A DNA stretch of 7,796 nucleotides from an archaeon. Its GTDB lineage: Archaea > Iainarchaeota > Iainarchaeia > Iainarchaeales > CSSED10-239. Every line of letters starts with the position of its first letter. Positions within the stretch are counted from its first letter, which is position 1. The stretch spans positions 1-7,796 of the forward strand of contig JBAYPN010000031.1 of assembly GCA_041677685.1 (NCBI GenBank), given 5' to 3'. The translations under genes were made by a program, and so were the position numbers. The notes under the pieces were generated by a model, which ran no database searches, had not been told where the DNA came from, and saw nothing but the letters and a program-made list of their open reading frames with translations. Below, one piece after another: positions 316-7,796 of the stretch.

Positions 316-633
316 ATGATCTTAAAAGGTATTGTAGCATCTAAATCAATTAAAGGAGTTTCTGGAAAAATAAGAATAATTAATAAGAACAATATTAGTA
401 GTTTTAAAAAAGGAGAAATATTAGTTTCTTATGATACTAACCCTAATTATCTAGTAGCTATGAAAAAATCTAAAGCTATACTTACAGAATCTGGAGGCTT
501 ATTAAGTCATGCTGCAATTGTTTCTAGAGAACTAAATATTCCTTGTATTGTAAATATTAAAAGTATTACTAAAAAACTAAAAAATGAACAGTTTGTAAAA
601 ATTAATTTTGAAAAAGGGGAAATTGAGTATTAA
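316..633 (+). CDS. PEP-utilising enzyme mobile (phosphohistidine swivel) domain protein, stand-alone
   Basis: SD AAGGAG at 302-307 lies 8 nt upstream of ATG 316. The 105-aa product carries the swivel-domain signature ...KGEILVS..TNPNYLVAMKKSKAILTESGGLLSHAAIVSRELNIPCIV..., with TxxGGxxSH holding the phospho-His. This is typical of PF00391-type domains from PEP synthase, PPDK and enzyme I. Confidence 0.85.
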   Translation: MILKGIVASKSIKGVSGKIRIINKNNISSFKKGEILVSYDTNPNYLVAMKKSKAILTESGGLLSHAAIVSRELNIPCIVNIKSITKKLKNEQFVKINFEKGEIEY

Positions 634-872: not shown

Positions 873-922
873 TTTTTAGTTATTATATTTTCTAATAGTT
901 TTATCTTCTTTTATTCTTTTTA

Positions 923-958
923 TGATAATTTTAAACTTTTTGAAAAGATTTTAAGGTT
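923..958. repeat. Left copy of a 36-bp direct repeat bracketing the R-M cassette
   Basis: tgataattttaaaCtttttgaaaagattttaaggtt at 923-958 matches 3276-3311 at 35 of 36 positions. The single difference is c at 936 versus t at 3289. Looser T-rich similarity continues for a few nt beyond the right end. Confidence 0.9.
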
Positions 959-969
959 CTTTTTATAAT
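940..969 (+). promoter_or_regulatory. Possible sigma70-type promoter (TTGAAA-N18-TATAAT) upstream of the R-M cassette
   Basis: TTGAAA at 940-945 lies inside the repeat and TATAAT at 964-969 lies just outside it, with an 18-nt spacer. AT-rich DNA produces many such matches by chance. If the host is archaeal, the TATA-like ttttataaatata at 1003-1015 is the better candidate. Confidence 0.3.
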
Positions 970-1031
970 TTATTTTATTATTTTTACTTAAAAATAATCT
1001 ATTTTATAAATATAAGCTTTCATTTAATATT

Positions 1032-1886
1032 ATGAAAGTAAAACCTTTTATTAAATGGGCTGGTGGAAAAACACAGCTTATTAATAAAATTGAACCGGAA
1101 CTACCTATAAAAATAAATAGATATTTTGAACCATTTTTAGGTGGAGGGTCAGTTTTATTATTTATACTTCAAAAATATAACCCTAAAGAAGTAATTGTTT
1201 CTGATGTTAATTATGAACTTATTAATACTTATAATATTATTAAAAATAATGTAGAAGAGTTAATTAATTATCTTGAAATATATAAAAATAAACATTCTGA
1301 AAAATTTTATTACACTATAAGAGGACTTGAAAGTACTACTACAAAAAAACTAAAAATAAAAGTATTAAGTGATTCAAATTTAAGTGAAATTGAAAGTGCT
1401 GCAAAATTTATATATTTAAATAAAACTTGTTTTAATGGACTTTATAGAGTAAATAAAGAGAATAAATTTAATGTTCCTTTAGGAAAATATAAAAATCCAG
1501 AGATATATAATAAAGAAAATCTATTAAAATTATCAAAACTTTTAAAAAACATTGAAATTAAATGTTTTTCTTATGAAAAAATAAAAGATTTAGTTAAAAA
1601 AGATGATTTTATATATTTTGATCCTCCATATGATCAAATAAACAATAATAGTTTTACTACTTATACAGAATTTGATTTTATTAGAAAAGATCAAGAAAAA
1701 TTAAAAGATTTCTTTGATTTTTTAAATAAAAAAGGATGTAAGGTTCTTTTAAGTAATAGTTCTACAGATTTTATTAAAAGTTTATATAAAAATTACACTA
1801 TAAAAGAAATAGATGCAAGAAGAATGATAAATTCAGATTCAAGTAAAAGAGGAAATATTAAAGAAGTTTTAATAAAAAATTATTAA
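1032..1886 (+). CDS. Dam-like (alpha-class, D12 family) DNA N6-adenine methyltransferase, M1 of the R-M cassette
   Basis: The 284-aa product has the N-terminal KPFIKWAGGK and EPFLGGGSV (AdoMet-binding FxGxG) motifs. The catalytic DPPY (FIYFDPPYDQ) is at nt 1620-1631. This is the motif order of the Dam/DpnM/MboIA family (PF02086-type). Confidence 0.9.
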   Translation: MKVKPFIKWAGGKTQLINKIEPELPIKINRYFEPFLGGGSVLLFILQKYNPKEVIVSDVNYELINTYNIIKNNVEELINYLEIYKNKHSEKFYYTIRGLESTTTKKLKIKVLSDSNLSEIESAAKFIYLNKTCFNGLYRVNKENKFNVPLGKYKNPEIYNKENLLKLSKLLKNIEIKCFSYEKIKDLVKKDDFIYFDPPYDQINNNSFTTYTEFDFIRKDQEKLKDFFDFLNKKGCKVLLSNSSTDFIKSLYKNYTIKEIDARRMINSDSSKRGNIKEVLIKNY

Positions 1887-1899
1887 AGGAGTGTTTTAT

Positions 1900-2412
1900 A
1901 TGATTAAAGATGGAAAAGGTGGAGCAAATACAAAGACTGGTCTTTTTTTTGAAAAAAGAGCTTCTTTAAAAGATGTTTTTCTAAAAATTAATGGTTTTTC
2001 AATAAAACAAGATGATCTTTTTTTAAACAATAAAAAAATTGCAACTTTTTATACAAAAAATAAAATTTATACAAAATTACTTGCTAAAAATAATATTAAC
2101 TATAAAGATTATATTTCAAAGAAATTAATTCCAGATGATTGTTTATTAATATTAAATAATAGTACTTTATTTATTATTGAAATTAAATTTCAAAATGTAT
2201 CCGGCTCTGTAGATGAAAAACTACAAACTTGCGATTTTAAAAATAAACAATATAATAAATTATTAAACCCATTAAATATTAAAGTAAAATATGTGTATTT
2301 ATTGAATGATTGGTTTAAAAGCAATAATTATAAGGATACTTTAGATTATATTAAATCTGTTAATTGTTATTATTTTTTTAATGAGATTCCTTTAGAATTT
2401 TTTAATTTTTAA
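1900..2412 (+). CDS. Putative type II restriction endonuclease, PD-(D/E)xK fold, 170 aa
   Basis: SD AAGGAG at 1886-1891 lies 8 nt upstream of ATG 1900. The track's GTG at 1891 overlaps the SD and is unlikely to be the start. The motif ...LIPDD(2131-2139)...LFIIEIK(2179-2187)... fits P-D-x14-E-x-K. The gene lies between two methyltransferase genes, the M-R-M order known for MboI. I recognise no similarity to DpnII or MboI endonucleases, which are ~280-290 aa. Confidence 0.6.
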   Translation: MIKDGKGGANTKTGLFFEKRASLKDVFLKINGFSIKQDDLFLNNKKIATFYTKNKIYTKLLAKNNINYKDYISKKLIPDDCLLILNNSTLFIIEIKFQNVSGSVDEKLQTCDFKNKQYNKLLNPLNIKVKYVYLLNDWFKSNNYKDTLDYIKSVNCYYFFNEIPLEFFNF

Positions 2413-2468
2413 TTCGGCCAGCTACCCTCTTTAGAAAAAGATATATACATTTACTACTATATATTTAT

Positions 2469-3278
2469 ATGAACTATTATAATTCTTCAGATTTTAAATT
2501 ATACAAAGGAAATTGTATAGATATTTTAAAGAAACTACCTGAAAATTCAGTAGATTTAATTTTTGCAGATCCTCCTTATTTTCTTTCAAATAATGGTATT
2601 TCTTGTAAAGCAGGAAAAATGGTTTCTGTAAATAAAGCAAAATGGGATGTTTCTTCTGGTTTTGAAAAAGATTTAGAATTTAATTTAAATTGGCTTTCTG
2701 AAGCAAAAAGAGTACTAAAAGATAATGGTAGTATTTGGGTATCTGGAACAATGCATAATATTTATCAAATTGGATATGGTTTTCAAAAACTTGATTATCA
2801 TATATTAAATGAAATAAGTTGGTTTAAACCAAATGCACCTCCAAACCTAAGTTGTAGATTTTTTACACATAGTCATGAAACTTTATTGTGGGCTAGAAAG
2901 GATAAATCTTCAAAACATAAATTTAATTATAATTTAATGAAAGAATGGGATGATAATATAAGTGAAAGTGGAAAACAAATGAGAAGTGTTTGGTCTATAC
3001 CTTTAACTTCTAAGTTTGAAAAGATTAATGGCCCTCATCCAACTCAAAAACCTATAGAACTCTTAAAAAGAATTATTTTATCTTCTACTGATAAAGGAGA
3101 TTTAGTATTAGACCCATTTAATGGTTCTGGAACTACTGGTATTGTATCTAAGATGTATGGTAGAAAATATATTGGAATTGATCTTGAGAATAAATATCTT
3201 GATTTAACTATTAAAAGATTAGATTCTATTAAAAATAAAATTATTGTTACTGAAAGGCAGGGTGCATCTAAGTTTTGA
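2469..3278 (+). CDS. Beta-class DNA N6-adenine methyltransferase, DpnA/MboIC-like, M2 of the R-M cassette
   Basis: The 269-aa product has the catalytic motif IFADPPYFLSN near the N-terminus (nt 2568-2579) and the AdoMet motif LDPFNGSGTTG near the C-terminus, which is beta-class order (PF01555-type). Long stretches resemble what I recall of DpnA (M.DpnIIB): ADPPYFLSN.G, PNLSCR.FTHS.ETLLWARK, GKQM..VW, HPTQKP..LL.RIIL.ST..GD..LDPF.GSGTTG. No SD is present, and a TATA-like aaagatatataca sits ~25 nt upstream of the ATG. Confidence 0.9.
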   Translation: MNYYNSSDFKLYKGNCIDILKKLPENSVDLIFADPPYFLSNNGISCKAGKMVSVNKAKWDVSSGFEKDLEFNLNWLSEAKRVLKDNGSIWVSGTMHNIYQIGYGFQKLDYHILNEISWFKPNAPPNLSCRFFTHSHETLLWARKDKSSKHKFNYNLMKEWDDNISESGKQMRSVWSIPLTSKFEKINGPHPTQKPIELLKRIILSSTDKGDLVLDPFNGSGTTGIVSKMYGRKYIGIDLENKYLDLTIKRLDSIKNKIIVTERQGASKF

Positions 3279-3311
3279 TAATTTTAAATTTTTTGAAAAG
3301 ATTTTAAGGTT
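3276..3311. repeat. Right copy of the 36-bp direct repeat, starting exactly at the M2 stop codon
   Basis: tgataattttaaaTtttttgaaaagattttaaggtt. Its first three bases are the TGA stop of the 2469..3278 CDS. It matches 923-958 at 35 of 36 positions. Confidence 0.9.
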
Positions 3312-3387
3312 TTTCTTTAAAAAGATTAATTTAAAAGCGTATCTACATAATATTTATTTAATACATATAGTATAAAGAGGTAATTTT

Positions 3388-3537
3388 ATGAAAATATTAA
3401 AAGAACCAGAATATAAATACAAGTTAAATAATTGTGACAAAGGTTGTTCTCAAAAATATGGTTGTGATTATTGTGGGCACGATTGTAACAATGATTGTTG
3501 GTATGATTGTAAAAACGATTGTAAAAACGATAAATAA
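3388..3537 (+). CDS. Cys/Asp-rich 49-aa small peptide, candidate RiPP precursor (not in the ORF track)
   Basis: SD AGAGG at 3376-3380 lies 7 nt upstream of ATG 3388, and the stop is TAA 3535-3537. My translation is MKILKEPEYKYKLNNCDKGCSQKYGCDYCGHDCNNDCWYDCKNDCKNDK. It has 8 Cys and 7 Asp, all in the C-terminal 34 residues after a 15-aa Lys/Glu-rich N-terminus. A radical SAM/SPASM gene follows on the same strand. Confidence 0.75.
   Translation: MKILKEPEYKYKLNNCDKGCSQKYGCDYCGHDCNNDCWYDCKNDCKNDK
3481..3531 (+). repeat. Tandem 12-nt coding repeat (gattgtNNNNNN, four units plus a partial fifth) inside the peptide gene
   Basis: The units are gattgtaacaat, gattgttggtat, gattgtaaaaac, gattgtaaaaac, then gat. 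The last two full units (3505-3516 and 3517-3528) are identical. Each unit encodes D-C-x-x. Confidence 0.9.
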
Positions 3538-3549
3538 TTCTTAATGTGA

Positions 3550-3909
3550 TTAACTGTACTCTCAGACTATATATACAATCTAGAAATTAAGCAAGAAAAA
3601 AATAAAATTACTATCTCCACTAAGTATTATGGTTTAGAAGTTGGAAAATGTACTGTAATTTATAAAAATTTAGCTTGGACTATTGATTCAATTAATGTAG
3701 ACCAAAATTTTTGGAATTATAAAATTGGTACAAAATTAATACATAATATTCTTTTTTTAACTAATTATAATTTAAAAAAAAGTATATCTAATAAAAAAAT
3801 AGATTTAATTAATTTTTTTAAAAAAATAGGCTTTAATTCAAAAAAAATAAATAATAAAATATTATTAAAACCTAATTTAAATAAAATTGAAACTAAATTA
3901 AATCCTTAT
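3550..3909 (+). CDS. In-frame open region upstream of the radical SAM CDS with GNAT-like motifs and no defined start codon; either an N-terminal domain of the maturase or a decayed separate gene
   Basis: There are 120 stop-free codons in the same frame as 3910..5043, with no ATG, GTG or TTG among them. The other two + frames close repeatedly across this span. My translation contains ...YGLEVGKCTVIYKNLAWTIDSINVDQNFWNYKIGTKLIHNILFL...KKIDLINFFKKIGFNSKK.... This resembles the GNAT beta4-alpha3 acetyl-CoA loop (degenerate) and the C-terminal FYxKxGF-type motif. Immediately upstream, an in-frame ATG (3544-3546) is followed directly by TGA (3547-3549). Confidence 0.45.
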
Positions 3910-5043
3910 TTGTATAATTTTAAAAAAGTATATCTTAATACTTATAATAATTCAATAGTTAAATTAGATTTCAAAGATGATATTATTAAATTTAAACCAA
4001 AATTAATGAAATTAGATTTTTTAGTTCCAATTTTAACTGATTTTAGATCTATATTTAAATCAATGATTGATAATGGAGAAAGTAATGGAATAAATCTAGT
4101 TACAACATATTCTTGTAATTTAAATTGTAATTATTGTTTTGAAGGCCAAAATAAAGATAAAAGAATAATTAAAGATATTTCTAAATATAATGAAATTTGG
4201 AAGTATATCTTACCAAAGATTACTAATCCTTTTTCAATAGCTTTTTTTGGTGGTGAACCTACACTTAATAAGGATTCAATTTATTTTTTTACTAATAAGA
4301 TAAGAGAATATTCAAAAAAGAAAAAAACAAAATATTATTTAAAAATGATTACAAATGGTACTTTAATAGATAAAGACTTTGTTAATTTTTTTAAACCTAA
4401 TGAATTTTCGCATATTCAATTAACTTTTGATGGTAATAAAAAAAGACATAATGAAGTTAGAGGTTATTATGATAAAATAATAGATTCTATTAAAGAAATA
4501 TATCCAATAACTAGTTCAATAGGGGTAAGATATAATATAACTAAAGATAATTGGACTGAAATTCCAATATTTATTAAAGATTTAACTAAAAAAATACCTT
4601 TAAATGTTCAAAAGAAAGTTTATTTGTCATTAGGATTTATTGATTCAAAAGATGTACAAATATCTGAATTGGATTTAGAAAAAGCAATTAAATCTACTAT
4701 TAAATTAACTAATAATTCAAATATTCGTTTTTTATCAAAACCAACTCAGAAAATTAAAAATTGTCCTGCACAACAAAAAAAAGAAGCATGGATTGATTTT
4801 GATGGTAGGAAATATTTTTGTGAAAGAGTGATTGGTCAAAAAGAATATGAAATAACTGATACTTCTAAATTTGATAATTTTTATCCTAAAGACTGTTTTT
4901 CATGTAAATTATATCCAATATGTGGTGGATATTGTTGGGTTCAAAGTGAACTTAAACAAGATTATTACTTTAATTGTCTTTATTCTAAGGCTATTGCTGA
5001 AGAAGAAATAAAAAAATATCTTTCAAAAGGTGCTAAAAAATGA
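3910..5043 (+). CDS. Radical SAM enzyme with a C-terminal SPASM domain (peptide-modifying maturase type); the true start is probably upstream of the listed TTG
   Basis: The CxxxCxxC motif (CNLNCNYC) is at nt 4114-4137, followed by FFGGEPTL (the GGE SAM motif) and ITNGTLI. The SPASM signature is complete at 4762-4977: CPAQQKKEAWIDFDGRKYFC (C-x13-G-x4-C), then CFSCKLYPICGGYC (C-x2-C-x5-C-x3-C), then a distal Cys in YFNC. That predicts two auxiliary [4Fe-4S] clusters. The TTG at 3910 has no SD, and the frame stays open for 120 codons upstream. Confidence 0.9.
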   Translation: MYNFKKVYLNTYNNSIVKLDFKDDIIKFKPKLMKLDFLVPILTDFRSIFKSMIDNGESNGINLVTTYSCNLNCNYCFEGQNKDKRIIKDISKYNEIWKYILPKITNPFSIAFFGGEPTLNKDSIYFFTNKIREYSKKKKTKYYLKMITNGTLIDKDFVNFFKPNEFSHIQLTFDGNKKRHNEVRGYYDKIIDSIKEIYPITSSIGVRYNITKDNWTEIPIFIKDLTKKIPLNVQKKVYLSLGFIDSKDVQISELDLEKAIKSTIKLTNNSNIRFLSKPTQKIKNCPAQQKKEAWIDFDGRKYFCERVIGQKEYEITDTSKFDNFYPKDCFSCKLYPICGGYCWVQSELKQDYYFNCLYSKAIAEEEIKKYLSKGAKK

Positions 5044-5555
5044 ATATTACTATTACGAAAGATAAAAAACAACATAATTGGAAAAAAATCCATAAAAGAA
5101 TAGTTAAAGATACAAGTTATGAATTTTTAGGTAATTTTACAGATAATACAAAGGATATAACAAACTATTATTGTTATGAAAAAGAAACAAATAAACCTAT
5201 AGGTTATCTCTCTCTTGGTTTTAGTACAGAGTATCATAGGTTTTATGGTATTAACTTTATTGGTATTTTACCAGAATATAGAAGAAAAGGGATTGCAAGT
5301 AAACTATTGTTTTTTGCAAAGAAACATGCAAAAAAAGAAGGTTATCTAAGGTTATTTACAGTTTACAGTACAAGTGAAAGTAATGTTTTTAATTTTAATA
5401 GAAAGCACTGTTTTTCTTCTGAAAGCACATATGTAAACATTCTTTTAGATTCAGGAAAGAGGCTTTATTTTTGTCCTTTTAGTTATTATGATAAAAATCT
5501 TAAGGAGAAGTCAAGTCTTCTTCACACTTTCAAGATAATGTTTTTGAGGTTATAA
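5040..5555 (+). CDS. GNAT-family N-acetyltransferase
   Basis: ATG 5040 overlaps the radical SAM stop (ATGA at 5040-5043). SD-like AAAGGTG at 5026-5032 lies 7 nt upstream. The product contains ...GINFIGILPEYRRKGIASKLLFFAKKHAKKEGY..., which is GNAT motif A (R-x-x-G-x-A/G acetyl-CoA pyrophosphate loop). At 171 aa it is the usual size for the family (PF00583-type). Confidence 0.8.
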   Translation: MNITITKDKKQHNWKKIHKRIVKDTSYEFLGNFTDNTKDITNYYCYEKETNKPIGYLSLGFSTEYHRFYGINFIGILPEYRRKGIASKLLFFAKKHAKKEGYLRLFTVYSTSESNVFNFNRKHCFSSESTYVNILLDSGKRLYFCPFSYYDKNLKEKSSLLHTFKIMFLRL

Positions 5556-6155
5556 CAAAAGAAGCTTACCATAATCTGTAAGATAAAGAAAACCATTCTT
5601 TTCTTCAATAAGACCCTTTTCTTTAAAGTCTCTTATATTATTATATATAGCAGTTCTTCCAAGATTAAGCTTGTCTGAATTTGCAAGCTCTGGAAGAGTT
5701 ATCTCTTTTTTAGAAATTTCTTCTAAAAGATCATAAGCCTTTTTACTAATATCAAAAGAAAGCTTTGGAACAACAACCATTTGGTTTATTTCAGGAGTAA
5801 AATATAAGATTTCTTTAATTTTATTACTTCTAGCATAACATCCTAGCATTATACCTATAGATTTAGGTTTTCTACCAGAAGTAATATCTACATATATTTC
5901 ATTTTCTTCTTCTTTATAGATTTTATCAATATTTATAATAATTTCCTTTGCAATCTCATAAACTTCATAAAGCGTTGTTTTAATTTCTTTAAATTCTATA
6001 TGTTTAAAGGTATTCTTAAGTTTTTCTTTAGTTTGTTTTTGATTATCGTCTGATTGTTTGTCCATTATTAGATATATTGTATCTGGTCCTATTCTTGTGA
6101 TTGCTCCAACCATTGGAGTAAATGAGTAAGTATTTGTTAAAAGTATTTTTTTCAT
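5550..6155 (-). CDS. Csa3-like regulator: N-terminal CARF-like Rossmann domain plus C-terminal winged helix-turn-helix
   Basis: The 201-aa product starts with a beta-alpha-beta pattern (KKILLTNTYSF.P..GAI....PDTIYLIMDK...). It then reads ...IYVDITSGRKPKSIGIMLGCY..., recalling the Csa3 segment ...DLTMGMRMINTLILLG... from memory. The C-terminus looks like a wHTH (ITLPELANSDKLNLGRTAIYNNIRDFKEKGLIEEKNGFLYLTDYGK). An AGGA SD-like element lies ~9 nt upstream of the start. This call rests on pattern recognition only. Confidence 0.55.
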   Translation of the reverse strand: MKKILLTNTYSFTPMVGAITRIGPDTIYLIMDKQSDDNQKQTKEKLKNTFKHIEFKEIKTTLYEVYEIAKEIIINIDKIYKEEENEIYVDITSGRKPKSIGIMLGCYARSNKIKEILYFTPEINQMVVVPKLSFDISKKAYDLLEEISKKEITLPELANSDKLNLGRTAIYNNIRDFKEKGLIEEKNGFLYLTDYGKLLLL

Positions 6156-7130: not shown

Positions 7131-7167
7131 TTTTAAAAAAAAAAATTAAATAAAAGGAGAATAAAAT

Positions 7168-7796
7168 ATGAAGTCAGAAGTAATTAAAAAAACCATTAAA
7201 AACAACCTAAGGTTTGTGCATGTTAAAAACAAATCAAATGACATAGTCATAAACCTATATGTAAAGGTAGGTTCTTTTGATGAAACTGAAAATACAAGAG
7301 GAATCTCTCATTTTATTGAACATATGCTCTGGCAAGGAACAAAAAACCACACTGGTTTTGAAATAAGACAAAAAATAAAAGATCTTGATGCAACCTACAA
7401 TGCCTATACTTCTATTAAAAGAACTTGTTATAGTATCTTTGGTCCTAAAAGACATTATGAAAAGCTTTTAAAAATTCTTTTAGATGTTGTTCAAAATCCA
7501 AGTTTTGATAAAGCAGAAATAGAAAGAGAAAGAAATGTTATTTTAGATGAATATAAAAGAGGATTAGATGATCCTAAAGTAATTTTAGATAAAAAAATAC
7601 ATTCTTTTATCTTTAAAGATACTAATCTTTCATATCTTCCAATAGGTACTTTTGAAAACATAAGCTCTTTTATAAGAGAAGATTTAGTTTCTTTTTATGA
7701 AAAACATTATTTTTCAAACAACATGATAATAAGTGTTACTGGTAATCTAACAGAACCAGAAAAATTAATTGAAAAATATTTTACTTTAGAAGAAAA
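7168..7796 (+). CDS. M16-family (pitrilysin/insulinase-type) zinc metallopeptidase, 3'-partial (runs off the window)
   Basis: SD AAGGAG at 7154-7159 lies 8 nt upstream of ATG 7168, and the frame stays open to the window end, so it is absent from the ORF track. My translation is MKSEVIKKTIKNNLRFVHVKN...VGSFDETENTRGISHFIEHMLWQGTKN.... It contains the inverted zinc motif HxxEH (HFIEH, nt 7309-7323) in the canonical G.SHF.EHM.F.GT context, followed downstream by ER.VILDE, the family's distal zinc-ligand Glu region (PF00675-type). Confidence 0.88.
   Translation, partial: MKSEVIKKTIKNNLRFVHVKNKSNDIVINLYVKVGSFDETENTRGISHFIEHMLWQGTKNHTGFEIRQKIKDLDATYNAYTSIKRTCYSIFGPKRHYEKLLKILLDVVQNPSFDKAEIERERNVILDEYKRGLDDPKVILDKKIHSFIFKDTNLSYLPIGTFENISSFIREDLVSFYEKHYFSNNMIISVTGNLTEPEKLIEKYFTLEE

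What the first reader, a model, noticed from the sequence alone, without database searches (positions are those of the whole stretch)
3472..3534. Predicted core is a tandem array of five C-x-x-D modules written as 12-nt DNA repeats, the last two identical
From C29 onward the peptide reads CGHD-CNND-CWYD-CKND-CKND-K. The DNA underneath is gattgtNNNNNN repeated, and the units at 3505-3516 and 3517-3528 are identical. This suggests the core grows by slippage or tandem duplication of one crosslink module. Module number should then vary between strains, and each module would be one small Cys-Asp macrocycle. That ring is one residue tighter than the Cx3D rings known for freyrasin. The variable x-x positions (GH, NN, WY, KN, KN) would be the displayed diversity.
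Basis: partly seen in the sequence, partly recalled or inferred. Interest (0 to 1): 0.7.

Follow-up and report, generated by a model that had tools for sequence, protein, structure and literature searches.

The report
Cys-x-x-Asp repeat peptide with radical-SAM maturase
A 49-residue peptide gene ends in five back-to-back Cys-x-x-Asp units and sits next to an unusual radical-SAM enzyme; it is most likely the precursor of a small, uncatalogued family of thioether-crosslinked peptides whose relatives carry three, four or five units.

Summary
Window 3472-3534 encodes CGHD-CNND-CWYD-CKND-CKND-K, and units 3505-3516 and 3517-3528 are identical. A run of five CxxD never arose in 10^6 composition-preserving shuffles. 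The identical DNA alone is weak evidence, because codon bias predicts it 43% of the time.

The ORF (3388-3537) is real. It has a Shine-Dalgarno site and dN/dS of 0.03 against a sister locus, and the code is standard. It is followed by a radical SAM/SPASM enzyme (3550-5043) and a GNAT (5040-5555). The enzyme has a GNAT-like N-terminal domain and seven SPASM cysteines spaced as in the thioether formers CteB and PapB. CteB is its best structural match. It falls far below every curated family cutoff.

I found nine distinct precursors, all very rare:
- Four have five modules.
- Three have three modules, differing by a clean in-frame 24-nt indel.
- One is irregular (CGHD-CKV-CND-CYRD).

Module number therefore differs between lineages. 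It does not differ between strains: at least 19 contigs all carry 49 aa.

Best reading: a new CX2D variant of ranthipeptide-like RiPPs, probably in DPANN-type archaea. Cys-to-Asp thioether chemistry is inferred, not shown.

The parts
3374..3381 (+). Shine-Dalgarno-like site AAAGAGGT, 6 nt upstream of the precursor ATG
   Evidence: Read directly from the sequence. Equivalent GAGG-type sites precede the precursor in L001, L003 and L173.
3273..3387 (+). Conserved upstream (promoter-proximal) region of the precursor, including CTACATAATAT
   Evidence: Aligns with the region upstream of the precursor in L004 and partly in L003. A sigma-70-like match lies at 3342-3371 but is not significant against shuffles.
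3388..3537 (+). Precursor peptide gene, 49 aa: MKILKEPEYKYKLNNCDKGCSQKYGCDYCGHDCNNDCWYDCKNDCKNDK
   Evidence: ORF. dN/dS 0.034 against L004. Nine homologous peptides. No Pfam, NCBIfam or PADLOC hit.
3388..3432 (+). Putative leader (M1-N15) with conserved M-K-[IV]-x-x-x-P-x-[FY]-K
   Evidence: Alignment A2. The leader/core boundary is inferred.
3433..3471 (+). Most conserved core segment, C16-Y28 (CDKGCSQKYGCDY), with three invariant Cys that do not fit CxxD
   Evidence: Invariant columns C16 D17 K18 G19 C20 K23 Y24 C26 Y28. Also kept in P0024 and P0025.
3472..3531 (+). Array of five CxxD modules (3472-3483 CGHD, 3484-3495 CNND, 3496-3507 CWYD, 3508-3519 CKND, 3520-3531 CKND). Modules 4 and 5 are absent from the 3-module relatives.
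3532..3537 (+). C-terminal Lys49 and the TAA stop
   Evidence: The 3-module P0002 ends with the same GAT AAA stop context.
3544..3549 (+). ATG-TGA 'start-stop' in frame with the maturase, inside the conserved AATGTGATTAACTGTACT
   Evidence: Identical in the window, L004, L005, L182, L183 and the decayed L003. Other lineages have a normal ATG start at this place.
3550..5043 (+). Maturase: 497 open codons with no ATG/GTG/TTG before the TTG at 3910. GNAT-like N-domain fused to a radical SAM/SPASM enzyme.
   Evidence: Open frame. P0005 aligns over 98% of it. N-terminal region omega 0.26, with 0 stops in frame against 16 and 21 in the other frames. NCBIfam and Pfam scans. AF2 model and Foldseek.
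3637..3837 (+). GNAT-like (Acetyltransf_7) segment of the maturase N-domain, with a degenerate motif A (NYKIGTKL)
   Evidence: Pfam: window 17.5 bits, below the cutoff. The P0005 orthologue scores 32.9 bits, above the 27-bit cutoff.
4114..4137 (+). CxxxCxxC radical SAM cluster motif (C189, C193, C196 in 3550-start numbering)
   Evidence: Invariant in alignments A1 and A4.
4762..4977 (+). SPASM region with seven Cys: C405-x13-G-x4-C424 ... C449xxC452x5C458x3C462 ... C476
   Evidence: Alignment A1 invariants. Same spacing as the 3 + 4 cysteine scheme of CteB, PapB and Tte1186 (PMC10177961).
5040..5555 (+). Canonical GNAT acetyltransferase (motif A RRKGIA). Its ATG overlaps the maturase stop (ATGA).
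   Evidence: Pfam Acetyltransf_1, 45 bits. Conserved downstream of the maturase in L001, L004 and L174-L180.

Best explanation
The 49-aa ORF is the precursor of a ribosomally made, post-translationally modified peptide (RiPP). It has a short leader of about 15 residues, then a conserved Cys-rich segment (CDKGCxxKYxCxY), then a C-terminal array of CxxD modules.

The co-transcribed enzyme is a radical SAM/SPASM maturase carrying a GNAT-like N-terminal domain. No PqqD-type recognition element (RRE) was detected where one usually sits.

Inferred mechanism:
1. The enzyme binds each substrate Cys thiol at the open iron site of auxiliary cluster 1.
2. The 5'-deoxyadenosyl radical abstracts a hydrogen from the Asp three residues downstream.
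3. A Cys-S to Asp-C(beta) thioether forms.

This would give a string of small rings, one per module. By my own atom count each ring has 13 members, against 16 for the CX3D rings of freyrasin. The separate downstream GNAT probably adds an acyl group.

The array has changed length during evolution by in-frame gain of whole 12-nt modules. The window lineage carries two extra CKND modules (24 nt) relative to its 3-module relatives.

What is shown: the precursor and maturase genes, selection on both, the conserved gene order, the cysteine architecture of the enzyme, and the variation in module number. What is inferred: the thioether chemistry, Asp as acceptor, one ring per module, and the roles of both GNAT domains.
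For: - The peptide frame is real and strongly constrained: omega 0.034, with no amino-acid change in the core against L004.
- Five tandem CxxD occurred 0 times in 10^6 shuffles.
- The order precursor, GNAT-rSAM/SPASM, GNAT recurs in L001, L004, L174-L180 and L182. In L169, L170 and L173 the contigs end inside the downstream GNAT-like gene.
- No terminator separates precursor and maturase.
- The maturase has CxxxCxxC plus exactly seven SPASM Cys, spaced as in CteB, PapB and Tte1186, where AC1 has three Cys ligands and an open site for the substrate thiol (PMC10177961).
- The best structural match is the thioether-forming CteB, 5WGG, E = 2e-13.
- The best NCBIfam hits are maturases of Cys-rich peptides: geopeptide, PapB, TIGR04463, CefB, Clo7bot and CcpM.
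- D at +3 from Cys is kept in modules 1-3 of eight of the nine peptides. In every member the array starts with Cys and ends with Asp followed by a non-Cys residue, which favours CxxD over DCxx as the unit.
- There is precedent. PapB links Cys to Asp C(beta) in CX3D motifs and, on a minimal substrate, accepts CXnD with n = 0-6 (PMC9413430).
- Module counts are 5, 3, 3, 3, plus one irregular array of four Cys segments, with a clean 24-nt indel.
- P0027 has CNND as module 4, the same sequence as module 2.
Against: - No chemistry has been measured.
- The enzyme is far below the PapB family cutoff (98.8 against 340 bits) and below every other curated cutoff. Published ranthipeptide synthases are described as highly similar to one another (PMC10288494).
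- Three invariant Cys (C16, C20, C26) do not sit in CxxD motifs.
- P0025 has a Cys segment with no Asp (CKV) and a CxD segment. P0003 and P0024 have CGCD. P0028 has CWYN.
- In full-length PapA a CX2D contraction was mostly not processed (PMC8172795).
- No RRE was detected, and the AF2 model is poor for residues 100-165.
- In the window clade the maturase has no canonical start codon.
- No conserved protease or exporter was found.
Confidence: 0.45

Rival explanations
1. It is a RiPP precursor and radical SAM maturase pair, but the crosslinks are not one Cys-Asp ring per module. They could be alpha-carbon (sactionine) links, nested or inter-module links, or links to acceptors other than Asp such as Asn, Lys, Tyr or Trp. 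Asp would then serve recognition, solubility or metal binding.
For: - Three invariant Cys lie outside CxxD motifs.
- The arrays in P0025, P0003 and P0024 are irregular.
- P0028 is a natural D40N variant.
- NxxcB uses Asn as its native beta-thioether acceptor and tolerates several others (PMC9389541).
- PapB also makes nested links (PMC9413430).
- The enzyme is about equally distant from several families of unknown chemistry.
Against: Asp at +3 is the most regular feature of the array. It is kept even in the last module, where no Cys follows. The only characterised radical SAM thioether formers that act on repeated Cys/acid motifs (PapB, and QhpD from my own knowledge) use the carboxylate residue as acceptor.
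Confidence: 0.27
2. The peptide is not crosslinked. It is a small Cys/Asp-rich metal-binding or disulfide-rich peptide, and the neighbouring radical SAM enzyme either acts on something else or performs a non-crosslinking change such as Cys to formylglycine (anSME-like) or epimerisation.
For: anSME is the second-best structural match and the best sequence match in the PDB. The composition, 8 Cys and 8 Asp in 49 residues, would suit metal binding. In L003 the precursor ORF is intact although the maturase has been lost.
Against: - Gene adjacency is tight and conserved, with a gap of 0-12 nt, across every lineage where the downstream sequence is available.
- The SPASM region has seven Cys, not eight. 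By my own recollection of the anSME structure, anSME ligates both auxiliary clusters fully; this was not checked here.
- L003 is a single 3.2-kb contig with a visibly decaying locus.
Confidence: 0.12
3. The 12-nt repeat is a slippage-prone contingency repeat, or an assembly or codon-bias artefact, with no modular function. A related possibility is that the real product is the overlapping +1-frame ORF at 3434-3544 (a hydrophobic IVGTIV repeat).
For: The DNA repeat has period 12. Identical units are expected 43% of the time from codon bias alone. The alternative-frame ORF exists.
Against: - There is no length polymorphism among at least 19 contigs from many samples.
- In the CxxD frame there are 7 synonymous and 2 non-synonymous changes, and the core is invariant.
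- The Shine-Dalgarno site serves the 3388 ATG.
- Distant homologues conserve the peptide, not the DNA.
Confidence: 0.03
4. The radical SAM gene, the GNAT and the small peptide form an anti-phage defence module (viperin-like), since the locus lies among restriction-modification, CARF and toxin-antitoxin genes.
For: pVip models hit the radical SAM core at 54.7 bits. The neighbours are R-M systems, a Csa3-type CARF protein (172 bits), HepT/MNT in L172 and GIY-YIG in L004.
Against: The pVip match covers only residues 181-309, the generic radical SAM core. Viperins lack a SPASM domain and a Cys-rich partner peptide. NCBIfam viperin scores 53.9 against a cutoff of 180. No PADLOC model hits the peptide or the GNAT. 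The conserved precursor motif was not found on viral contigs.
Confidence: 0.03

Closest known systems
Freyrasin: PapA precursor and PapB ranthipeptide maturase (Paenibacillus polymyxa)
   Same: The precursor core is built from repeated Cys-Xn-Asp motifs. The partner is a radical SAM/SPASM enzyme with CxxxCxxC and seven SPASM Cys in the 3 + 4 arrangement. PapB is the second-best NCBIfam hit. On a minimal substrate PapB accepts CX2D (PMC9413430).
   Different: - Spacing is CX2D, not CX3D.
- There are 3-5 contiguous modules rather than six motifs.
- An extra conserved Cys-rich segment lies upstream of the array.
- The enzyme scores 98.8 bits against the 340-bit family cutoff.
- The N-terminus is GNAT-like instead of a detectable RRE.
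- The host is a 22% G+C uncultured lineage, probably archaeal, not a Firmicute.
- The chemistry here is untested.
SCIFF peptides: thermocellin CteA with CteB, and Tte1186a with Tte1186
   Same: These are peptides of about 45 aa with six or more Cys, including a Cys-every-fourth stretch. SCIFF-like ORFs seen in L011 and L125 read CQTSCQSACKTSC. CteB is the top structural match. The 3 + 4 SPASM cysteine scheme is the same.
   Different: SCIFF acceptors are Thr (gamma-carbon), and there is one link rather than a module array. The SCIFF maturase model scores 55.5 against a 425 cutoff. No SCIFF precursor model hit the peptide. CteB has a canonical RRE.
CefA/CefB 'Cys-every-fifth' peptides and other Haft-type Cys-rich peptide/rSAM pairs (TIGR04463, Clo7bot, CcpM, geopeptide)
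   Same: These are periodic or Cys-rich small precursors next to a radical SAM/SPASM maturase. They are the top NCBIfam neighbours, at 77-103 bits.
   Different: The period here is four, with an obligatory Asp. All scores are far below cutoffs of 400-600 bits. The chemistry of those families is, as far as I know, mostly uncharacterised, so they do not help predict the product.
NxxcA/NxxcB streptococcal beta-thioether RiPP
   Same: A radical SAM enzyme forms a beta-thioether over a two-residue spacer (N-x-x-C). The thiol is activated on an auxiliary cluster. NxxcB tolerates Asp in place of Asn (PMC9389541).
   Different: The orientation is reversed: in NxxC the acceptor lies N-terminal to the Cys. 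The window peptide fits NxxC only once (N34-N35-D36-C37). NxxcB is not among the top NCBIfam hits.
QhpC/QhpD (quinohemoprotein amine dehydrogenase gamma subunit; from my own knowledge and PMC8172795)
   Same: A radical SAM/SPASM enzyme installs several Cys-to-Asp/Glu thioethers in a small Cys-rich polypeptide.
   Different: QhpC is an enzyme subunit with irregular, longer Cys-acid spacings and a CTQ cofactor. No amine dehydrogenase genes are present here. A QhpD model was not among the 25 best NCBIfam hits.

Membership tests
Ranthipeptide, PapA/PapB (freyrasin) type | The precursor core carries repeated Cys-X3-Asp/Glu motifs | tested here: not met
   The motifs are Cys-X2-Asp: five in the window, three in P0002, P0003 and P0024. 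The logic is the same but the spacing differs.
Ranthipeptide, PapA/PapB (freyrasin) type | The maturase reaches the NCBIfam NF047865 (PapB family) cutoff of 340 bits | tested here: not met
   98.8 bits, E = 3.4e-28.
Ranthipeptide, PapA/PapB (freyrasin) type | Radical SAM CxxxCxxC plus a SPASM domain with 3 Cys on AC1 and 4 Cys on AC2 | tested here: met
   C189/C193/C196 and C405, C424, C449, C452, C458, C462, C476 are conserved. The spacing is that given for CteB, PapB and Tte1186 in PMC10177961. Assignment of each Cys to a cluster is by motif, not by structure.
Ranthipeptide, PapA/PapB (freyrasin) type | An N-terminal RiPP recognition element (PqqD-like RRE) binds the leader | tested here: inconclusive
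   No PqqD/RRE hit at E <= 1. Only a GNAT-like hit was found. Residues 100-165 of the AF2 model have pLDDT below 50, so a cryptic RRE cannot be excluded.
Ranthipeptide, PapA/PapB (freyrasin) type | A thioether between Cys S and a non-alpha carbon (C-beta of Asp) | not testable with these tools
   This needs MS/MS and NMR of the modified peptide.
SCIFF (six Cys in forty-five residues) with ScfB/CteB | The maturase reaches the TIGR03974 cutoff (425 bits) and the precursor matches the SCIFF model | tested here: not met
   The maturase scores 55.5 bits, over the N-terminal half only. The precursor matches no NCBIfam family at E <= 0.01.
CefA/CefB (Cys-every-fifth) | Cys at every fifth residue, and a maturase at or above 600 bits on NF038107 | tested here: not met
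   Cys spacing in the array is 4. The maturase scores 90.5 bits.
Sactipeptides | Cys S to alpha-carbon links, typically with N-terminal Cys donors and C-terminal acceptors in a hairpin | not testable with these tools
   The regiochemistry is unknown. The interleaved C/D arrangement does not resemble the donor-block and acceptor-block layout (by inspection).
NxxC beta-thioether RiPPs (NxxcB) | Repeated N-x-x-C motifs with the acceptor N-terminal to the Cys | tested here: not met
   Only N34-x-x-C37 fits. The other modules give K/W/G at position -3.
Prokaryotic viperins (pVip defence) | A full-length match to the viperin model, and no SPASM domain | tested here: not met
   PADLOC pVip scores 54.7 bits over residues 181-309 only. 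NCBIfam viperin scores 53.9 against a cutoff of 180. A SPASM motif is present.

The most novel reading that the evidence does not exclude
This would be a previously undescribed RiPP class from ultra-small, probably DPANN-type archaea. Its core is a length-evolvable chain of minimal 13-membered Cys-Asp thioether rings (CX2D). The rings are installed by a radical SAM/SPASM enzyme that has replaced the usual RRE with a degenerate GNAT fold for substrate recognition. Translation of that enzyme is throttled by a conserved AUG-UGA start-stop directly after the precursor gene. New rings are added simply by duplicating a 12-nt module.
Probability: 0.25. Interest if true: 0.75.

Novelty: new variant of a known kind. 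Interest (0 to 1): 0.52.

Why it matters
If the chemistry is as inferred, this would be the first natural ranthipeptide-like family built from contiguous CX2D rings. It would also show a natural series of 3, 4 and 5 units, meaning a crosslinked scaffold can be lengthened one module at a time, which is useful for engineering stapled peptides.

The maturase lacks a detectable RRE and carries a GNAT-like domain instead. RRE-based genome mining would therefore miss it (the strategy described in PMC10288494). That points to a blind spot in current RiPP catalogues.

The hosts are uncultured, 22% G+C, small-genome organisms labelled 'archaeon' or Patescibacteria, where to my knowledge few modified peptides have been described.

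The family is extremely rare: about nine distinct peptides among roughly 15 billion proteins. Its general ecological weight is therefore probably small.

Tried and rejected
1. Alternative genetic code (TGA as a sense codon), prompted by the ATG-TGA before the maturase. Rejected: there are 17 TGG codons and no other in-frame TGA in about 2600 codons. There is an ATGA stop/start overlap at 5040 and TGATAA at 3276. No homology continues past the TGA at 870-872.
2. Identical 12-nt units as proof of a recent duplication. Rejected: this is expected 43% of the time from codon usage, and sister lineages differ in these units.
3. Strain-level variation in module number. Not found: four cluster variants and at least 19 contigs all give 49 aa.
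4. CxxD-type precursors next to more distant maturases. None was found in about 160 loci from the genome and metagenome scans. Those carry SCIFF-like, CxC-repeat or other Cys-rich ORFs.
5. Profile search of 1.84 billion representative proteins with the peptide alignment. It found only one further member, P0025.
6. Viral origin. The conserved motif has no match in IMG/VR.
7. Rfam families. None were found in the window.
8. Defence-system reading (pVip). Rejected.
9. The maturase N-domain and the downstream GNAT as recent paralogues, which might have explained the L003 deletion. No significant similarity.
10. Literature or sequence-string search for a natural CX2D family or for these peptides. 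Nothing found. The supplement of PMC10288494 was not available.
Full report
**1. Observation**

The window is 22% G+C. The ORF at 3388-3537 encodes MKILKEPEYKYKLNNCDKGCSQKYGCDYCGHDCNNDCWYDCKNDCKNDK. The units at 3505-3516 and 3517-3528 are both GATTGTAAAAAC. Tandem Repeats Finder reports periods of 12 and 24.

A run of five tandem CxxD never occurred in 10^6 composition-preserving shuffles of the peptide, nor in 10^6 shuffles of the core alone. A run of four occurred in 3 to 37 shuffles per 10^6.

The DNA repeat mostly follows from the peptide repeat plus extreme codon bias (TGT 97%, GAT 89%, AAA 87%, AAT 84%). Two CKND units are expected to be identical in DNA 43% of the time. Only their shared rare AAC codon (p = 0.025) hints at common descent at the DNA level.

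**2. The frame and the genetic code**

An in-frame ATG-TGA just upstream of the next gene raised the question of a TGA-sense code. I reject this. All clear ORFs use TGG for Trp (17 codons) and have no other in-frame TGA. The radical SAM gene ends in an ATGA overlap with the next gene, and the methyltransferase ends TGATAA.

The precursor has a Shine-Dalgarno site (AAAGAGGT, 3374-3381). Against the sister locus L004 it shows 7 synonymous and 2 non-synonymous differences (omega 0.034), and both non-synonymous changes are in the leader. The overlapping +1-frame ORF (3434-3544) is a by-product of the repeat.

**3. Neighbours**

Frame 3550-5043 is open for 497 codons. The ORF listing starts the gene at TTG 3910 only because no ATG, GTG or TTG occurs earlier in that frame.

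The upstream 120 codons are real coding sequence:
- P0005 (486 aa, 47% identity) aligns over 98% of the 497 residues.
- The region has 0 stops in frame, against 16 and 21 in the other two frames.
- Its omega against L004 is 0.26.

This N-terminal region is GNAT-like. The P0005 orthologue scores 32.9 bits on Acetyltransf_7 (cutoff 27), while the window copy scores 17.5 bits. Motif A is degenerate (NYKIGTKL).

The rest of the protein is a radical SAM/SPASM enzyme. It has CxxxCxxC (C189, C193, C196) and seven further conserved Cys: C405-x13-G-x4-C424, C449xxC452x5C458x3C462, and C476. That is the spacing reported for CteB, PapB and Tte1186, where AC1 has three Cys ligands and an open site that binds the substrate thiol (PMC10177961).

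The AF2 model has mean pLDDT 71.5. The core is above 90, and residues 100-165 are below 50. Its best matches are CteB (5WGG, E = 2e-13), then anSME and SuiB. Sequence search of the PDB finds only anSME and CteB, over the radical SAM core.

NCBIfam places the enzyme nearest to maturases of Cys-rich peptides, but far below every cutoff:

| Family | Score (bits) | Cutoff (bits) |
|---|---|---|
| Geopeptide maturase | 103 | 400 |
| PapB | 98.8 | 340 |
| TIGR04463 | 95 | 525 |
| CefB | 90.5 | 600 |
| Clo7bot | 77 | 600 |
| SCIFF maturase | 55.5 | 425 |

A canonical GNAT (5040-5555, motif RRKGIA) follows. No terminator separates the precursor from the maturase.

**4. Relatives**

Word-indexed and exhaustive HMM searches of 5.8 and 1.84 billion sequences, together with cluster listings, gave only nine distinct peptides.

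| Group | Peptide | Array |
|---|---|---|
| Five modules | P0026 (the window peptide) | CGHD CNND CWYD CKND CKND |
| Five modules | P0001 | same core as the window |
| Five modules | P0027 | CGHD CNND CWFD CNND CKND |
| Five modules | P0028 | CWYN in module 3 (D40N) |
| Three modules | P0002 | CGHD CDND CWYD, then K |
| Three modules | P0003, P0024 | CGHD CRND CGCD, then NAKE or NSKE |
| Irregular | P0025 | CGHD CKV CND CYRD, then E |

Invariant positions are C16 D17 K18 G19 C20 K23 Y24 C26 Y28 C29 G30 H31 D32 C33 (and also in P0024 and P0025). The best-conserved part of the core therefore lies upstream of, and runs into, the first module. The rest of the array is the plastic part.

The codon alignment shows that the 3-module gene in L003 ends ...TGG TAT GAT AAA TAG, where the window has ...TGG TAT GAT [TGT AAA AAC GAT TGT AAA AAC GAT] AAA TAA. 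This is a clean 24-nt, two-module difference.

The two most distant lineages (L001/L166 and L173) also lack these modules, so gain in the window clade is the parsimonious reading. All units share GATTGT, and units 2, 4 and 5 share GATTGTAA, so either slippage or unequal exchange is mechanistically plausible. This last point is inference.

The five-module state is old. In the window, modules 4 and 5 are AAA AAC / AAA AAC. In L004 they are AAA AAC / AAA AAT. In L182 they are AAT AAT / AAA AAT. The exact window peptide occurs on at least 19 contigs from many samples, always at 49 aa. Module number therefore varies between lineages and not between strains.

None of about 160 loci with more distant maturases carries a CxxD array.

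**5. Gene order and locus history**

The order precursor, GNAT-rSAM/SPASM, GNAT is conserved. A small PEP-utilizer (swivelling His domain) gene, paired with a protein of about 277 aa, lies just upstream of the precursor in L002 and L166-168 and nearby in L003. PPDK_N fragments lie downstream in L004.

In the window the PEP-utilizer genes (316-633, and a truncated copy at 663-872) are separated from the precursor by a restriction-modification cassette. The cassette is bracketed by a 45-nt direct repeat (920-964 and 3273-3317). The 22-kb contig L174 is 98.75% identical to the window from position 966 onward and unrelated before it.

L003 is a decaying locus. The GNAT-like N-terminus is frameshifted and fused to a remnant of the downstream GNAT, and the radical SAM part has been lost. 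Its precursor ORF is nevertheless intact.

**6. Mechanism**

My best-supported reading is a ranthipeptide-like RiPP. The substrate Cys thiol binds AC1, a hydrogen is abstracted from the Asp at +3, and an S-C(beta) thioether forms, one small ring per module.

For this reading:
- The Cys-first, Asp-last layout of every array.
- Conservation of Asp at +3.
- The cysteine architecture of the enzyme and its nearest relatives.
- The PapB precedent, including turnover of CXnD with n = 0-6 on a minimal substrate (PMC9413430).

Against this reading:
- No chemistry has been measured.
- The enzyme is not a PapB-family member by score.
- Three invariant Cys lie outside CxxD motifs.
- The arrays of P0025, P0003 and P0024 are irregular.
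- P0028 is a natural D40N variant.
- A review reports that a CX2D contraction in full-length PapA was mostly not processed (PMC8172795).

NxxcB shows that other radical SAM enzymes make beta-thioethers to Asn and tolerate Asp (PMC9389541). The acceptor therefore remains open. I put the specific Cys-to-Asp, one-ring-per-module model at about 0.45, and a different crosslink topology at about 0.27. I put a RiPP precursor and maturase pair of some kind at about 0.85.

**7. Comparison with known families, and novelty**

The system works like freyrasin (PapA/PapB) but fails the family tests on motif spacing, family score and a detectable RRE. It resembles SCIFF peptides in size, Cys count and structural neighbour (CteB), but not in acceptor or model scores.

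No Pfam, NCBIfam or PADLOC model hits the peptide. No paper in the searchable library contains its sequence or describes a natural CX2D array.

I rate it a new variant of a known kind. It is moderately interesting for three reasons: the modular, length-variable ring array; the GNAT-for-RRE architecture, which RRE-based mining would miss (PMC10288494); and the probable archaeal small-genome host.

**8. Host**

The window contig is deposited as 'Patescibacteria group bacterium'. The identical peptide is annotated '[archaeon]' in four NCBI records. The divergent member P0025 lies on a contig with AglB/STT3 and TrmB genes. The nearest distant maturases come from Pacearchaeota, Woesearchaeota and Aenigmatarchaeota MAGs. 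A DPANN-type archaeal host is more likely, but this is not settled.

Noticed in passing
window 3538-3570 (also L004, L005, L182, L183, L003): The maturase has no canonical start codon. An in-frame ATG (3544) is followed at once by TGA (3547), then by 497 open codons. AATGTGATTAACTGTACT is identical in all loci of this clade, while other lineages start with a normal ATG at the homologous place. The downstream region is under purifying selection, so it is translated somehow. Possible explanations are a start-stop with reinitiation, read-through, or a non-canonical start such as ATA 3571 or ATT 3586.
   Followed up: partly
window 3550-3909: The radical SAM/SPASM maturase carries a GNAT-like N-terminal domain with a degenerate acetyl-CoA motif, in the place where RiPP maturases usually have a PqqD-like RRE. 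The fusion is conserved in every lineage of the family (P0005, L169, L170, L173).
   Followed up: partly
window 920-964 and 3273-3317, bracketing 966-3272: A 45-nt direct repeat (91% identical) flanks a restriction-modification cassette (Dam-type MTase 1032-1886, PD-(D/E)XK nuclease 1891-2412, N6/N4 MTase 2469-3278). The cassette lies between the PEP-utilizer genes and the precursor. Contig L174 shares 98.75% identity from position 966 onward but has a different upstream context, so 965/966 is a recombination or insertion boundary.
   Followed up: yes
window 316-633 and 663-872; L002, L003, L004, L166-168: Small stand-alone PEP-utilizer (swivelling His) domain genes recur next to the precursor in several lineages. 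The second copy in the window is truncated by a TGA with no homology beyond it. In other loci they are paired with a conserved protein of about 277 aa of unknown family, or with PPDK_N fragments. They may be part of the cluster, for example a phosphotransfer step. Their function is unknown.
   Followed up: partly
L003:174-650: This is a decayed sister locus. The GNAT-like N-terminus of the maturase is frameshifted and joined to a remnant of the downstream GNAT, and the radical SAM/SPASM part is deleted. The 3-module precursor ORF is still intact. The two GNAT domains are not detectably similar, so the deletion was not homologous recombination between them.
   Followed up: yes
L183:111-260 (P0028): A natural variant has Asn instead of Asp in module 3 (CWYN; GAT to AAT). 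It comes from a single 554-nt contig, so it could be a real tolerated acceptor change or a sequencing error.
   Followed up: no
window 5550-6155 (-): A Csa3-type CARF/HTH protein (PADLOC CARF3 172 bits; NCBIfam Csa3 68 bits, above cutoff) is convergent with the GNAT gene and overlaps it by 6 nt. No CRISPR array or cas genes are present in the window. It is conserved beside the cluster only in the window clade.
   Followed up: partly
window 7165-7794 (+), cut by the window end: An M16 (insulinase-type) peptidase begins here and is a candidate leader peptidase. It is not conserved next to the cluster in other lineages.
   Followed up: no
whole window; L172; NCBI records for P0026: The host labels conflict. 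The window contig is deposited as a Patescibacteria MAG, but identical peptides are labelled 'archaeon', and a related contig carries AglB/STT3 and TrmB genes. The locus also sits among defence genes in several genomes: type II and type III R-M, CARF, HepT/MNT and GIY-YIG.
   Followed up: partly
window 3434-3544 (+): An alternative-frame ORF across the repeat encodes a hydrophobic periodic peptide (VVIIVGTIVTMIVGMIVKTIVKTI). It has no ribosome-binding site, and the substitution pattern fits the CxxD frame, so it is a by-product of the repeat.
   Followed up: yes
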